The position numbers and the translations under genes were made by a program. The notes under the pieces were generated by a model that saw only the letters and a program-made list of their open reading frames with translations, had not been told where the DNA came from and did not search any database. This document shows positions 30,436-33,340 of a stretch of 39,099 nt of DNA, one piece after another; the first letter of the stretch is position 1, and each line of letters begins with the position of its first letter. This stretch comes from an uncultured Actinomycetes bacterium. GTDB lineage: Bacteria; Actinomycetota; Thermoleophilia; UBA2241. The DNA lies in contig CAVWIH010000005.1 in assembly GCA_963755025.1 (NCBI GenBank), positions 1 through 39,099 on the forward strand, read 5' to 3'.

Positions 30436-31721
30436 GCTGTCTCCTTGGTCTCCTGTAGCGTAGCAGACGCGCGACGACGGCAGGGCTTCGCGCGCCGCGC
30501 CGCTCGCGCCTGCGGCGGCCCGCCAGTGCGAGGATGAGCAGCATGGCGGTCCCCAGCCCGATCACGACGGCGAAGGGCAGGCCGAAGGAGAGGCGGTAGA
30601 GCGCCGCCGCCGAGGAGCGAGCCGCAGGCGGTCGGCACGCCCATGCTGGCGTCGAAGACGGCGTAGCCCCACACCGGCGGCACTGAGCCGAAGGAGCGGC
30701 TGACGATGCCGGCCGTGACGAAGCGGAACGAGTCGAAGGCGCCGTAGAAGAACACGGCGAGCGCCCAGCCCGGCGGCCCCCAGCCGGCCAGCATGAGGAC
30801 CGCGCCCAGCACGAGGCAGCCGATCGTGAGGCCGATGCCCTGGCGGTGGCCGCGCAGGTCGGTGGCGCGGCCGGCGACGAACGTGATGACGCTGCCGCCC
30901 AGGGCGCCGATGCCGGCCAGGATGCCGAGCGAGGTGTAGCCGAGGTGGTGCACCTGCGCGAAGTAGGGCTGCACGAAGGGCGCCGCCAGGTAGACGGTGA
31001 GAAAGCCGCCGAAGAAGAAGATGAGGTTGCGCCGAAAGACGCGGTTGCCGAGCAGATCGGCGAGCTTCCAGGGGCGTCCGGCGGCGTGGTAGGGCGTGTC
31101 CTTGATGAGGCATGATGACGATCGACGAGGCCACGTAGAAGCCATCGCGATCACGAACACCAGGCGCATGCCGTAATGACCGGCGATCCAGCCGCCGGCC
31201 AGCGGACCGATCGCCATGCCCAGCGGAAAGCTCGCGAACACGTACGAGATGTTGCGCGCCATGCGAGCCGGCTCCGACTTGAGCATGATGTAGACCTTGA
31301 ACGCCGGGTTGTTGGCCATGTAAAGCCCGGTCAGCAGGTACCCGGGGATCAGCCAGGGCCAGCTCGGCGCCAGCGCGAAACACAGCGCGGTCGGCACCGT
31401 GAGCCACCACACCCAGACGATGATGGGCTTGAGGCGGATGTGGTCCGCCGCCCAGGCGCCGGGCAGGTAGCCCAGCGCCGTCATGACGAGCTGGATGGCC
31501 ACGAGCGCGCCGATCATGAAGCGCGGCGCGCCCAGGTTCTTGATCGCGTAGACGTTCAGGAGCTGGTAGTAGAGTCCCAGACCCAGCGAGAACAGCAGGC
31601 TCGACCAGAAGGCGAGCCACAGGTCGCGGCCAAAGCCGGCGGGCGGCGCCTCGGCGCCGGCTGTCGCGCGGCCTTCAGGCATGGAGGGCGCCGCGTACGG
31701 CGCGGGGCGAGTGTTGCTCAC
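30432..31721 (-). CDS. MFS transporter (several compensating frameshifts)
   Basis: About 12 hydrophobic segments; motif A-like GAWAADHIRLK and GRATDLRGHR; ATGA overlap with the YhaM-like gene. Confidence 0.82.
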   Translation of the reverse strand: MSNTRPAPYAAPSMPEGRATAGAEAPPAGFGRDLWLAFWSSLLFSLGLGLYYQLLNVYAIKNLGAPRFMIGALVAIQLVMTALGYLPGAWAADHIRLKPIIVWVWWLTVPTALCFALAPSWPWLIPGYLLTGLYMANNPAFKVYIMLKSEPARMARNISYVFASFPLGMAIGPLAGGWIAGHYGMRLVFVIAMASTWPRRSSSCLIKDTPYHAAGRPWKLADLLGNRVFRRNLIFFFGGFLTVYLAAPFVQPYFAQVHHLGYTSLGILAGIGALGGSVITFVAGRATDLRGHRQGIGLTIGCLVLGAVLMLAGWGPPGWALAVFFYGAFDSFRFVTAGIVSRSFGSVPPVWGYAVFDASMGVPTACGSLLGGGALPPLLRPALRRRDRAGDRHAAHPRTGGPPQARAARRAKPCRRRASATLQETKETA

Positions 31722-31891
31722 GTGGGGACATCGCGGCCCTCAGTCTAGCAGCGCGAGGTCTCCGCGGCCGCGCCGTGGGTGCTAGGCGGCGGGCATCACA
31801 AGACGCCGCACTGAGGGTGGCGCGGCGGTGGACAGTACGACGGCCGCGGCGGGCGGCGGTGCGGCAGGCGGGGCATCGCGGACCTCGAGAC

Positions 31892-31931
31892 AAAGCGAGG
31901 GGCGGGGAGCCGGTTGGCGCCCCGCCCCTCG
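31892..31931 (-). terminator. Terminator hairpin of the small-ORF transcript
   Basis: 12-bp stem CGAGGGGCGGGG/CCCCGCCCCTCG, followed by CTTTG on the minus strand. Confidence 0.7.
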
Positions 31932-31975
31932 GGCGGCTTGACGAAAGACAGCCGCTTTTCAGGTGAGCTTGTTGC

Positions 31976-32020
31976 TCAGAAGACGACTGCCTTCCGTCTT
32001 GCTACCTCGGAATATGCCAT
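31976..32020 (-). CDS. Unannotated 14-aa small ORF MAYSEVARRKAVVF
   Basis: Perfect SD AGGAGGT (32032-32026) 5 nt before the ATG; TATACT -10 at 32101-32096; flanked by a 5' hairpin and 3' hairpins. Confidence 0.6.
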   Translation of the reverse strand: MAYSEVARRKAVVF

Positions 32021-32423
32021 CAGCCACCTCCTGTCGTCGACTACGGGCCACGCCCCGGTCGAGCGTTCAACATCACAAGACCGGAGCGTGCCGGCAGTAT
32101 AAGCCTTTTCGCCGCTGAAAACACCCGATTCGACCGGCGCCCTCGAGACCGTCCCTGCGTCAGATCCGCCCACCGCGCTACAGGAACCCGTGCGCGGCCC
32201 GACAGATCCGTGCGCGGTGTGACGGATCCGTGCGACGCCCGCAGCCGCCGGCCGCCGCGCCCGCAGCCGCCGGCCGCCGCGCCCGCAGCCGTCGCGGCGG
32301 CCCGCTTTGCGGATAGGATGGGAGTTGCGCCGGGAACATCTCCGGCGACGGTCGACGCGCGGGACGCGCCAGGCGCCGGCGGCGGGCCGCAGGCCCGCCG
32401 CAGCTTGAGACGAAAGGATCACA

Positions 32424-33235
32424 GTGGCCGATCTGCGTATCGGGGGCATGGCCCTGAGGGACGGAGTGCTCCTGCAAAGCCAGGACAACTGGGCGGCCGC
32501 CATTCGGCTGCCCGACGGGAACGTCGAGGTGTGCTCGGGCGCGCGGAGCCGCCTGCCGGGCCGCGCCGTGCTCGAACGCGTACCGGTGGTGCGCGGCGTG
32601 GGCCGCCTGATCGAGACGGTGACCGCCCTGCCCGCCATGCGGCGCGGCTTGGGGCGCAGCGTGCTGCCCCAGGAAGAACCGGCCGTGGTCGCGGCCGCGG
32701 TGGCGAGCGCGGTGGCCACCGTGGCGTTGCGCAAGACCATGAAGTCGGCGCCGCTCGCGCGCGAGCTGGCCATCACGGCGCTGTCGATCGCGCCGGCCCT
32801 GCTCGCCGTGCGCATGACCGAGCTGTCGCGGTTCCACGGCGCCGAGCACAAGAGCGTGGCGGCCTTTGAGACCGGCGGCGACCCCAGGACGGCGGCCAAA
32901 GAGCACGACCGCTGCGGCACCAACCTGCTCGGCCCCATCATGCTCACCAACCTGGCGGGCGGCCTTGTGCTGCGCGCCACGGGGCGCGACGACCAGCCGC
33001 TGCCGACCCTGTTCATGGGGCTCGTCTCGCTGGGGTCGGCCTTCGAGATCTTCTCGTGGATGAGCCGCCATCAGGGGACACCCGCTGGCCGATGCGCTGC
33101 GCGCGCCCGGCCTTGCGCTGCAGCGCCTGCTCACCACTCGCGAACCCACGCGGCGAACAGCTCGACGTCGCTCAGGCGGCGCTTGGTGAGTTGCTGCGCC
33201 GCGAGGGTGCGGAGCCGGCTGCGGCGGCAGTCTAG
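32424..33235 (+). CDS. DUF1385-like membrane protein (frameshifts near 33080 and 33150)
   Basis: LRIGGMALRDGVLL, RFHGAEHKSV, HDRCGTN. The shifted frames give PGLALQRLLTTREP...QLDVA, with stop TAG 33233-33235. Confidence 0.8.
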
Positions 33236-33256
33236 CGGATACGTCGCGCGTCTGGG

Positions 33257-33340
33257 CCGCCGATCGACTACGTCGTCGGCGCTCAAGCTGGCGGGGCTTA
33301 CGCTGCGCGCTTAGTCCGCCGATCGACCACGTCGTCGGCG
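33257..33340. repeat. Two 25-bp palindromic repeats, 59-bp period
   Basis: CCGCCGATCGACyACGTCGTCGGCG at 33257 and 33316, between convergent genes. Confidence 0.75.

What the first reader, a model, noticed from the sequence alone, without database searches (positions are those of the whole stretch)
31890..32101. Stand-alone ~200-nt transcript encoding a 14-aa peptide (MAYSEVARRKAVVF)
Seen on the minus strand, in order: TATACT -10; a 12-bp hairpin (32090-32049) starting at the predicted TSS; a perfect SD AGGAGGT; the 14-codon ORF with atypical A/T-ending codons; a second hairpin (GCGGCT...AGCCGC, ~31955-31933); and a terminator. The island is less GC-rich than its flanks. I do not recognise the peptide or the RNA. 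Inference: an undescribed microprotein, a dual-function sRNA, or a ribosome-sensing leader. It contains an R-x-K motif of the macrolide-arrest type and lies upstream of the MFS-YhaM operon, although that operon has its own TGcTAGACT -10.
Basis: partly seen in the sequence, partly recalled or inferred. Interest (0 to 1): 0.72.

Follow-up and report, generated by a model that had tools for sequence, protein, structure and literature searches.

The report
Conserved 14-codon small RNA gene
A strongly folded RNA of about 200 bases, with its own promoter and terminator, carries a conserved 14-codon reading frame in a small group of uncultured soil and peat actinobacteria, and it looks like a new tiny-protein or dual-function RNA gene rather than a switch for the transporter gene next to it.

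Summary
These are the TATACT -10, a 12-bp hairpin at the predicted start, AGGAGGT, the 14-codon ORF MAYSEVARRKAVVF, the GCGGCT/AGCCGC hairpin, a GC-rich terminator, a GC dip and rare A/T-ending codons.

It is not chance. The RNA folds far better than shuffles (z -7.0). The whole unit is conserved in 13 genomes of two sister genera of uncultured Thermoleophilia, in 16 of 16 metagenome hits, and in diverged form in a third genus (MHLGRQARGKAIVC, again 14 codons).

Substitutions in codons 2-8 are mostly synonymous (9 versus 5, P=0.002). The ORF's second half sits in a long helix kept by wobble and compensatory changes. No Rfam family matches.

The downstream gene differs between genomes: MFS in 6, HAD hydrolase in 7, methyltransferase in 1. 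Each has its own -10-like hexamer. No predicted alternative structure competes with the terminator. It is therefore not a leader of the MFS-YhaM genes.

Best reading: an autonomous, stabilised small mRNA whose 14-residue peptide is made, possibly doubling as a translation-gated RNA. Its function is unknown, and direct proof of transcript ends and of translation is missing.

The parts
32096..32101 (-). -10 promoter hexamer TATACT
   Evidence: Invariant in 13 of 13 genome copies while the sequence on both sides varies. Also present in 15 of the 16 metagenome copies; L109's contig ends before it is fully shown. G013 has TAGTCT at the same place. The function is inferred.
32049..32090 (-). P1: 5'-terminal hairpin (12 bp in the window) that starts at or within a base or two of the predicted transcription start
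   Evidence: A hairpin at this place is predicted in 13 of 13 relatives although arm sequences and loop lengths differ. G013 also has one.
32026..32032 (-). Shine-Dalgarno AGGAGGT, six bases before the ATG
   Evidence: ACAGGAGGT is invariant in 13 of 13. GGAGGT is also kept in G013.
31976..32020 (-). 14-codon ORF plus stop: MAYSEVARRKAVVF
   Evidence: It has 14 codons in 12 of 13 genomes, 16 of 16 metagenome hits and G013. Substitutions in codons 2-8 are biased toward synonymous changes.
31984..31998 (-). P2 5' arm: codons 8-13 of the ORF. The helix extends outward to codon 5.
   Evidence: Helix 2 has 21 pairs and 98.5% of cells paired; 10 pairs vary on one side only and 2 show compensatory changes.
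31940..31954 (-). P2 3' arm CGGCUGUCUUUCGUC
   Evidence: Compensatory changes: C-G to U-A in L101, and A-U to G-U to G-C in G011 and G010.
31964..31978 (-). P2b: small hairpin UGAGC/GCUCA that contains the stop codon
   Evidence: G010 has GGGCUGC/GCAGCCC at the same place.
31933..31955 (-). P3: alternative hairpin GCGGCU/AGCCGC, mutually exclusive with P2
   Evidence: It forms in 4 of 13 folds when a ribosome footprint is imposed on codons 4-13. Both arms are nearly invariant (the 5' arm is GCGGCC in G010, a C·A mismatch), so there is no covariation evidence.
31888..31930 (-). Intrinsic terminator: 15-bp GC stem, AACC loop, tail GCUUUGUCU
   Evidence: helix 5 has 99.2% of cells paired and 3 pairs with double changes. 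The same core, GAGGGGCGGGG...CCCCGCCCCTC, closes other genes in the family.
32424..33314 (+). Divergent neighbour: DUF1385-family gene. Residues 1-220 are conserved. A probable -10 TAGGAT lies at 32314-32319.
   Evidence: Pfam PF07136, E = 1.4e-7. Adjacent and divergent in all 13 genomes and in G013. The promoter is inferred from sequence.
31742..31747 (-). -10-like hexamer TAGACT (with TGC in front) of the downstream MFS gene. This is context and not part of the unit.
   Evidence: Hexamers TAGACT, TAGGCT or TAAGCT precede the downstream gene in the relatives read.

Best explanation
This is an autonomous small gene.

A housekeeping-type -10 (TATACT) starts an RNA of roughly 200 nt at the foot of a 5'-terminal hairpin (P1). 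That hairpin probably shields the 5' end from decay. A full-strength Shine-Dalgarno at ideal spacing, followed by A/U-rich and therefore unstructured first codons, loads ribosomes onto a 14-codon ORF. A strong intrinsic terminator ends the RNA.

The ORF is translated, and its peptide is under selection. The conserved core is A-R-x-K-A-[V/I/A]-[V/A]. The second half of the ORF is locked in a helix of about 21 bp (P2) with the segment just before the terminator. Each translating ribosome must melt P2. The freed segment then folds on itself (P3) or onto the initiation region.

P2 therefore most likely armours the tiny mRNA and throttles or gates its own translation. It may also let the RNA change shape according to whether it is being translated, which would make it a dual-function RNA.

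Shown: the anatomy, the conservation, the covariation, the synonymous bias, the independence from the downstream gene, and presence in RNA libraries.

Inferred: the transcription start, translation, what the peptide does, and the role of P2.
For: Anatomy and fold:
- (z = -7.0).

Conservation of the whole unit:
- Full-length copies in 13 of the 41 genomes searched (the window's own, all 11 others of its genus, and one of a sister genus) by blastn.
- By covariance model, 13 genomes score 118.9 bits or more, against a next-best score of 44.6 bits among 89 family genomes.
- 16 of 16 metagenome pattern hits are complete copies.
- A diverged copy in a third genus keeps the -10, P1, GGAGGT, exactly 14 codons, an ORF-to-3'-segment helix and a terminator (z = -4.8).

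Coding signal:
- The ATG and the 14-codon length are kept in 12 of 13 genomes plus G013 plus 16 of 16 metagenome copies.
- In codons 2-8, the variable sites are 5 of 7 third positions, 1 of 7 second positions and 3 of 7 first positions.
- I count 9 synonymous and 5 non-synonymous codon variants there, against a neutral expectation of 16/63 synonymous (P = 0.0024). The variants were tallied by hand.
- Arg8 is AGA, AGG or CGA within the genus and CGG in G013.

Not part of a longer ORF:
- The in-frame open stretch upstream varies from 15 to 375 codons.
- The distance from the -10 to the ATG varies by non-multiples of 3.
- 3 genomes have no in-frame upstream start.

Structure:
- 98.0% of pair cells are paired, against 43-56% when partners are slid.
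- 6 pairs carry double changes, and 0 of 500 shuffles reach this.

Independence from downstream genes:
- MFS follows directly in 6 genomes.
- HAD hydrolase follows in 7. Pfam confirms it in 5; in G007 a DLDGT motif and in G021 DLDG were read in the sequence.
- An O-methyltransferase follows in 1.

Terminator not regulated:
- The terminator is kept in 12 of 13 folds with a ribosome footprint imposed.

RNA libraries:
- Contigs of 151-231 nt cover the unit in 4 of 4 metatranscriptome runs laid.
Against: - There is no direct evidence of the 5' and 3' ends, of translation or of the peptide.
- The RNA-library evidence comes from assembled contigs in runs that were chosen with this very stretch. They may contain DNA, and they run 21-46 nt past the terminator. 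In two of the four runs the flanking genes are covered at similar depth.
- In codons 9-14 the variable sites are mostly second positions (5 of the 6 codons vary there, against 1 of 6 at third positions). All of them preserve P2 pairing, so RNA structure rather than the peptide may drive conservation there.
- The N-terminal half is not conserved in G013.
- One genome (G021) has a frameshifted ORF. Three neighbouring genes on that contig are also split between frames, which points to assembly error.
- A 14-residue, non-hydrophobic peptide has no obvious partner.
- A conserved long helix over half the ORF is unusual for a plain protein-coding mRNA.
Confidence: 0.5

Rival explanations
1. It is a free-standing ribosome-sensing RNA. 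The peptide acts in cis as an arrest sequence through the conserved Arg-x-Lys (+X+) motif at residues 8-10. A ribosome stalled there, for example by a macrolide-like compound or by shortage of a rare tRNA, keeps P2 open. The freed 3' segment then refolds into P3, which displays the loop GUCUUUCGUCA, or closes the RNA's own initiation region. The output is a change in the RNA's stability or in its trans-acting pairing. It is not control of a downstream gene.
For: - R8 and K/R10 are kept in 12 of 13 genomes, 16 of 16 metagenome copies and G013, while residue 9 varies (R, W, G). That is the pattern expected of a +X+ motif.
- That motif is described as the main ketolide/macrolide stalling context in PMC8298421 and PMC12583479. 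I saw only the search listings and the start of the abstracts.
- A footprint centred on codon 9 covers exactly the P2 5' arm.
- With that footprint imposed, the 3' segment forms P3 in 4 of 13 folds and pairs with the SD/AUG region in 8 of 13.
- Very rare codons are present: AGA in the genus, and TTA and AGA in G013.
Against: - No output is identified.
- The P3 loop is not the best-conserved part. It is altered in G005, G007, G021 and L101.
- The one candidate target found, the DUF1385 ribosome-binding site, shows no co-variation.
- The P3 arms and the TIR pairing are essentially invariant, or are broken without compensation (GGCU to GGCC in G010 and G011), so nothing but thermodynamic prediction supports them.
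- R-x-K occurs often by chance in short basic peptides.
- Codons 8-10 are also constrained by P2.
Confidence: 0.2
2. It is a non-coding, trans-acting small RNA. The ORF is incidental, and the apparent coding signal is a by-product of RNA-level constraints.
For: - Very strong, conserved structure.
- Nucleotide-level conservation of the ORF's second half is explained by P2.
- Own promoter and terminator.
- Very narrow taxonomic range, which is typical of sRNAs.
Against: - A perfect SD at optimal spacing and an invariant ATG are hard to explain without translation.
- The 14-codon length is kept even in the diverged G013 copy, whose N-terminal codons are all different.
- Codons 2-8 lie outside P2. 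Within the genus they vary mainly at third positions and synonymously.
- Arg8 is kept through the codon change AGA to CGG.
Confidence: 0.15
3. It is a classical ribosome-mediated transcription attenuator (leader peptide) that controls readthrough into the co-oriented downstream gene, which is MFS-YhaM in the window.
For: - The layout is attenuator-like: promoter, short ORF overlapping stem 1, alternative stems P2 and P3, then a terminator.
- A co-oriented gene follows within about 100-280 nt in all 14 genomes.
- RNA-library contigs run 21-46 nt beyond the terminator.
Against: - The next gene belongs to three unrelated families (MFS in 6, HAD in 7, O-methyltransferase in 1).
- In the 10 loci whose sequence reached it, a -10-like hexamer precedes the downstream start. 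In the HAD cases it lies about 7 nt before the ATG, with no SD, so a readthrough RNA would translate that gene poorly.
- P3 does not overlap the terminator, and the terminator persists in 12 of 13 footprint-constrained folds.
- The only conceivable antiterminator is 6 bp (CCGCCC/GGGCGG, noted by eye) and has no covariation.
- The MFS matches no specific efflux subfamily.
Confidence: 0.07

Closest known systems
Dual-function small RNAs that encode very small proteins, e.g. Spot 42 with the 15-residue SpfP (PMC8916003; I saw only the search listing and the start of the abstract)
   Same: It is a small independent transcript with its own promoter and terminator, stable secondary structure, and an ORF of about 15 codons.
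   Different: There is no sequence or Rfam relationship. No base-pairing target is known here. Half of the ORF is buried in a conserved long-range helix. The organism is a Gram-positive-type, high-GC uncultured Thermoleophilia. Neither the peptide nor any RNA activity has been demonstrated.
[quoted passage not shown]
   Same: The ORF is short and has a strong SD. It overlaps the first arm of mutually exclusive helices. A terminator follows. An R-x-K motif is conserved.
   Different: No helix competes with the terminator or with a downstream ribosome-binding site. The downstream gene is not conserved and has its own promoter-like hexamer. There is no resistance or biosynthetic gene attached.
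5'-terminal stem-loop mRNA stabilisers (the ompA 5' UTR and the Bacillus 5' stabilisers; recalled from memory, no call)
   Same: A hairpin begins at or next to the first transcribed base and is followed by a very strong SD.
   Different: Here it is attached to a 14-codon ORF rather than a normal gene. The stabilising effect is inferred, not measured.

Membership tests
Any Rfam 15 RNA family | Score at or above the family's gathering threshold | tested here: not met
   There are 0 matches in the whole window at gathering thresholds. At E up to 10 on 31600-32450 there are only 7 weak matches of 23.4 bits or less, all far below gathering. Those that fall on the element cover only the terminator hairpin, on the opposite strand.
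Ribosome-mediated transcription attenuator (trp/erm type) | Short translated ORF overlapping one arm of alternative helices | tested here: met
   ORF codons 5-13 form the 5' arm of P2. The P2 3' arm can alternatively form P3.
Ribosome-mediated transcription attenuator (trp/erm type) | Antiterminator (or anti-sequestor) mutually exclusive with the terminator (or with the downstream RBS) | tested here: not met
   P3 ends 2 nt before the terminator stem. The terminator is retained in 12 of 13 folds with a ribosome footprint on codons 4-13.
Ribosome-mediated transcription attenuator (trp/erm type) | A conserved regulated gene downstream that depends on readthrough | tested here: not met
   The downstream gene is MFS in 6, HAD hydrolase in 7 and O-methyltransferase in 1 of 14 genomes. 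A -10-like hexamer precedes it in the 10 loci read that far.
Macrolide-type (+X+) arrest leader | Arg/Lys-X-Arg/Lys in the nascent peptide | tested here: met
   R8-x-K/R10 is present in 12 of 13 genomes, in G013 and in 16 of 16 metagenome copies. The middle residue x is R, W or G.
Macrolide-type (+X+) arrest leader | Linked resistance gene (rRNA methylase, ABC-F, Mef-type efflux) induced by the stall | tested here: not met
   The MFS matches only the generic MFS_1 model, and no NCBIfam family comes near its cutoff. In 8 of 14 genomes the next gene is not a transporter.
Macrolide-type (+X+) arrest leader | Drug-dependent ribosome stall | not testable with these tools
   This needs toeprinting or ribosome profiling.
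Dual-function sRNA / small-protein mRNA | Independent small transcript with its own promoter and terminator | tested here: inconclusive
   The -10 is invariant and the terminator conserved. RNA-library contigs of 151-231 nt cover it in 4 of 4 runs, but contigs cannot show ends, strand or level.
Dual-function sRNA / small-protein mRNA | The small ORF is translated | tested here: inconclusive
   The evidence is evolutionary only: the SD, ATG and 14-codon length are kept, and synonymous variants outnumber non-synonymous ones 9 to 5 in codons 2-8 (P = 0.0024).
Dual-function sRNA / small-protein mRNA | Base-pairing regulation of target mRNAs | tested here: inconclusive
   One candidate was found: 9 bp between the P2 3' arm and the DUF1385 ribosome-binding site. 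It shows no co-variation in G005, G007 and G008. No genome-wide target search was done.
Type I toxin mRNA | Hydrophobic membrane peptide | tested here: not met
   The peptide has 5 charged residues in 14 and no hydrophobic stretch longer than AVVF. No search for an antisense RNA was made.

The most novel reading that the evidence does not exclude
The unit is a stand-alone translation sensor: an arrest-type peptide (conserved R-x-K, rare AGA/TTA codons) on an RNA with no cis-regulated gene. Ribosome stalling would hold open the 21-bp ORF helix and switch the RNA to a second fold. That fold either shuts the RNA's own ribosome-binding site or displays a C/U-rich loop that acts in trans. The cell would then read out translation stress, such as soil macrolides or tRNA shortage, through a free small RNA rather than through an attenuator.
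Probability: 0.12. Interest if true: 0.75.

Novelty: new member of a known kind. Interest (0 to 1): 0.45.

Why it matters
Thermoleophilia are abundant in soils and peat but almost unstudied at the RNA level. No small RNA or microprotein gene has been described for this lineage in the texts I could search.

This unit is a clean candidate that is defined by sequence and covariation. It has a 14-codon ORF that evolves like a coding sequence, while half of it is also an RNA helix. If the peptide is made, it would be among the shortest conserved bacterial gene products. If the helix gates translation or RNA activity, it would be a compact example of translation-coupled RNA switching without an attached gene.

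Its narrow range and the lack of a cultured host limit its immediate impact.

Tried and rejected
1. Known RNA family. Rfam gave nothing at gathering thresholds and only sub-threshold noise at E up to 10.

2. Wider distribution.
- The covariance model R1 was run on all 89 genomes of the family, which is also the whole order. Hits of 44.6 bits or less were inspected in 7 of 7 cases and are plain GC-rich terminator hairpins after other ORFs.
- R1 missed the diverged G013 copy, so its sensitivity is limited.
- Outside the order I have only blastn on 16 same-class genomes (0 of 16) and the two whole-collection exact-pattern scans (11 loci; 16 loci).
-, a pattern search over 401 class genomes, was wasted. 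I wrote 18 instead of 15 free bases after the ATG, so even the window did not match, and its 0 of 401 means nothing. The corrected pattern found 10 of 89 genomes with 0 control hits. It is too strict for G002, G010, G011 and G021.

3. The 346-codon open frame 31976-33016 that ends with the small ORF. It has no Pfam match. The upstream open length varies from 15 to 375 codons, and the spacing changes by non-multiples of 3. Rejected as a GC-rich artefact antisense to DUF1385.

4. Antisense ORF 31914-32102. Antisense frames are often open in relatives, so that test is uninformative. Element lengths of 191-215 nt differ by non-multiples of 3, which argues against a conserved antisense protein.

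5. The P2 3' arm as a seed for the DUF1385 ribosome-binding site (GACGAAAGG, 9 bp). The RBS is unchanged where the arm has changed (G005, G007). It has changed in G008, where the arm is unchanged. The same RBS occurs in genomes that lack the element. Rejected for lack of co-variation.

6. Attenuator of MFS-YhaM. See the rival explanations.

7. MFS as a macrolide or drug pump. No specific family matched.

8. Metatranscriptome contigs.

9. Habitat shares were not used as evidence.

10. Literature. There were 0 papers with a fragment of the peptide. Three papers contain 'Thermoleophilia' plus 'small RNA', and none looks relevant by title or abstract start. Supplements are closed and were not seen. 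A transcriptome supplement could list such an RNA.

Protein-database, family, atlas, fold and complex searches with the peptide were not run: 14 residues is below every tool's minimum.

Full report
**What is there**

On the minus strand the window reads, in order:
- TATACT at 32101-32096.
- A 12-bp hairpin, P1, at 32090-32049. It begins 5 bases after the hexamer, at about the predicted start.
- AGGAGGT at 32032-32026.
- ATG at 32020 and a 14-codon ORF (MAYSEVARRKAVVF) that ends at TGA 31978-31976.
- A small hairpin that contains the stop codon (31978-31964).
- The segment GCGGCUGUCUUUCGUCAAGCCGCC (31955-31932).
- A 15-bp GC stem with an AACC loop and the tail GCUUUGUCU (31930-31888).

The minimum-energy fold of 211 nt is -120.1 kcal/mol, against -84.9 +/- 5.0 for 200 shuffles (z = -7.0). 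In that fold the ORF from about codon 5 to codon 13 pairs with the segment just before the terminator; I call this helix P2.

GC falls to 0.57-0.62 across the unit, from 0.74-0.84 beside it. Six of the 13 sense codons end in A or T, against 9.2% genome-wide (P = 6e-4). GCA, ACA, GTA and AGA each make up 1.3-3.5% of their synonymous families.

**It is conserved as a unit**

Blastn against 41 related genomes found full-length copies in 13: the window's own genome, all 11 other genomes of its genus, and one genome of a sister genus. The other 6 genomes with a match held only pieces of about 35-50 nt that match the terminator.

In the alignment the TATACT, ACAGGAGGT, the ATG and the terminator core are invariant, while the sequence upstream of the -10 and downstream of the terminator is not alignable.

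A covariance model of the SD-to-terminator part scored 118.9-181.7 bits in those 13 genomes and at most 44.6 bits anywhere else in the 89 genomes of the family. The 7 weak hits I read are ordinary terminators that share the GAGGGGCGGGG...CCCCGCCCCTC core.

An exact-pattern scan of about 185,000 species genomes found 11 loci. All are MAGs titled Thermoleophilia, Actinomycetes or Actinomycetota bacterium. A looser, peptide-based pattern scan of the metagenome collection gave 16 loci, and all 16 are complete copies with the same parts.

Inspection of the region next to the DUF1385 gene in 16 genomes of other genera turned up one more copy, strongly diverged, in G013. It has:
- TAGTCT as the -10.
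- A 5' hairpin.
- GGAGGT.
- Again 14 codons (MHLGRQARGKAIVC).
- A long helix between the ORF's distal two-thirds and the pre-terminator segment.
- A terminator.

Its fold has z = -4.8.

**The ORF behaves like a coding sequence, and also like half of a helix**

The peptides are M-[A/T]-[Y/D]-[S/A/P]-E-[V/A]-A-R-[R/W]-[K/R]-A-[V/A]-[V/A]-[F/V/S].

Within codons 2-8, which lie mostly outside the core of P2, the variable sites are 5 of 7 third positions, 1 of 7 second positions and 3 of 7 first positions. Counting distinct codon variants by hand gives 9 synonymous and 5 non-synonymous. A fraction of 16/63 would be synonymous by chance (P = 0.0024). Arg8 is written AGA, AGG or CGA within the genus and CGG in G013.

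In codons 9-14 the picture reverses. The changes sit at second positions (V/A, K/R, R/W), and every one keeps P2 paired: U-G to C-G, A-U to G-U to G-C, and C-G to U-A with the partner changing too.

On 26 distinct sequences:
- 98.0% of pair cells are standard pairs, against 43-56% when the partners are slid by 1-3 columns.
- 6 pairs carry changes on both sides, and 0 of 500 shuffles reach that number.
- P2 itself has 21 pairs: 8 invariant, 10 that vary on one side only, and 2 compensatory.
- That alignment was fitted to the model, which favours the structure somewhat.

The only copy with a disrupted frame is G021. Three neighbouring genes on its contig are also split between frames, so an assembly error is likely.

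The long open frame that runs into the small ORF in the window (346 codons) is not conserved in length or phase and has no family match.

**It is not a leader of the MFS-YhaM genes**

The upstream, divergent neighbour is always the DUF1385-family gene (13 of 13 genomes; G013).

The downstream, co-oriented gene is not constant:
- MFS follows directly in 6 genomes (G000, G002, G004, G008, G010, G011).
- A Cof-type HAD hydrolase follows in 7. Pfam confirms it in G001, G003, G005, G006 and G009. In G007 and G021 a DLDG(T) motif is read in the sequence.
- An O-methyltransferase follows in G013.

In the 10 relatives whose sequence I read that far, a TAGACT, TAGGCT or TAAGCT hexamer sits 7-11 nt before the downstream ATG, with no SD in the HAD cases.

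P3 stops 2 nt short of the terminator stem. When a 30-nt ribosome footprint is imposed around codon 9, the terminator is still predicted in 12 of 13 sequences. The freed segment forms P3 in 4 of 13, or pairs with the SD/AUG region (GGUGGCU with AGCCGCC, GAUGA with UCGUC) in 8 of 13. Nothing competes with the terminator.

The MFS matches only the generic MFS_1 model and no drug-efflux subfamily.

**Expression**

Six RNA-library runs share a few words with the stretch. I laid four of them. Each holds at least one contig of 151-231 nt, at 85-99% identity, that covers most of the unit (for example 31887-32071, 31896-32044 and 31887-32062).

Three of these contigs begin inside the P1 loop and do not continue into the promoter. 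All run 21-46 nt past the terminator stem.

This is compatible with an abundant small RNA, but it is weak evidence:
- The runs were selected with this stretch.
- Contigs show neither ends nor strand.
- DNA carry-over is possible.
- In two of the runs the flanking genes are covered at similar contig depth.

**Mechanism I commit to**

This is an autonomous, stabilised mini-mRNA. The 5'-terminal hairpin and the terminator bracket the RNA. The perfect SD and the A/U-rich first codons give efficient initiation. The ribosome melts P2 as it reads codons 5-14 and terminates inside a small hairpin.

The product is a 14-residue peptide whose A-R-x-K-A-[V/I/A]-[V/A] core is the part shared with the distant copy. 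P2 is functional, since it is maintained by compensation. It most plausibly protects the untranslated RNA and limits or gates ribosome loading, because the freed 3' segment is predicted to close the initiation region.

I put 0.5 on this reading. The rivals are:
- 0.2 on a cis-acting arrest or sensor role of the peptide with an RNA-level output.
- 0.15 on a purely non-coding sRNA.
- 0.07 on a classical attenuator.
- The rest on something I have not thought of.

**Comparison with what is known**

It works most like the dual-function small RNAs that carry very small ORFs, such as Spot 42 with the 15-residue SpfP (PMC8916003; listing and start of abstract only). In layout it resembles leader-peptide attenuators. 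It is a member of neither by test:
- It has no Rfam relative.
- It has no antiterminator.
- It has no conserved regulated gene.
- It has no demonstrated target.

The conserved R-x-K matches the +X+ stalling context of macrolides and ketolides (PMC8298421, PMC12583479; listings and starts of abstracts only). The linked resistance gene that defines those leaders is missing.

I found nothing in print on this peptide or on small RNAs of Thermoleophilia.

**Verdict**

This is a real, conserved, previously undescribed small transcription unit with a probably translated 14-codon ORF. It is restricted, as far as searched, to three genera of one family of uncultured Thermoleophilia. It is a new member of a known kind (small-ORF RNAs and microprotein genes), with an unusual overlap of coding sequence and helix. 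I score interest at 0.45. It is a good, well-defined candidate, but it is narrow in range and has no function assigned.

Noticed in passing
window 32236-32296 (+ strand): A GC-rich unit of about 22 nt (cgcccgcagccgccggccgc...) is repeated about 2.5 times in tandem. It lies between the element's promoter and the DUF1385 promoter.
   Followed up: no
window 32379-32423 (+ strand): The DUF1385 5' leader has a GC hairpin (GGCGGGCC-GCAG-GCCCGCC) directly before the SD GACGAAAGGA and the GTG at 32424. The hairpin plus SD recur in most of the 12 genus copies; G008 differs.
   Followed up: partly
window 31675-31731 (- strand): TGCTAGACT is followed 10 nt later by ATG 31731, which opens only a 19-codon frame. 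The MFS frame starts at GTG 31721 in another phase, and a relative (L063) has no start codon in that phase at the same place. This could be a leaderless mini-ORF, a mis-set MFS start, or an assembly frameshift.
   Followed up: no
L043-L049; also G000:C28:129260-129300 and G000:C37:24644-24717: The terminator core GAGGGGCGGGG-(loop)-CCCCGCCCCTC recurs after many unrelated genes across the family. It is a shared, almost repeat-like terminator sequence.
   Followed up: partly
L012, L042 and L070 (G021 contig C2): The DUF1385, thioesterase and MFS genes are each split between frames on this contig, and the small ORF there carries a 1-nt insertion. This probably reflects indel errors in that assembly.
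   Followed up: partly
L003, L069 and L111 (G004-type copies), just after the terminator: The 3' half of the terminator plus its U-tract (CTCCCCGCCTCTCGTTTTGTCTC) is duplicated about 25 nt downstream. One RNA-library contig (X20) ends at that second U-tract.
   Followed up: no
L083 (G012) and L089 (G019), divergent from DUF1385: In these two genera, which lack the element, the divergent neighbour of DUF1385 appears to be a radical-SAM-type gene. The CxxxCxxC-like motif CNLSCAHCY / CNLGCRHCY is read in the translated sequence. No Pfam search was run on it.
   Followed up: no
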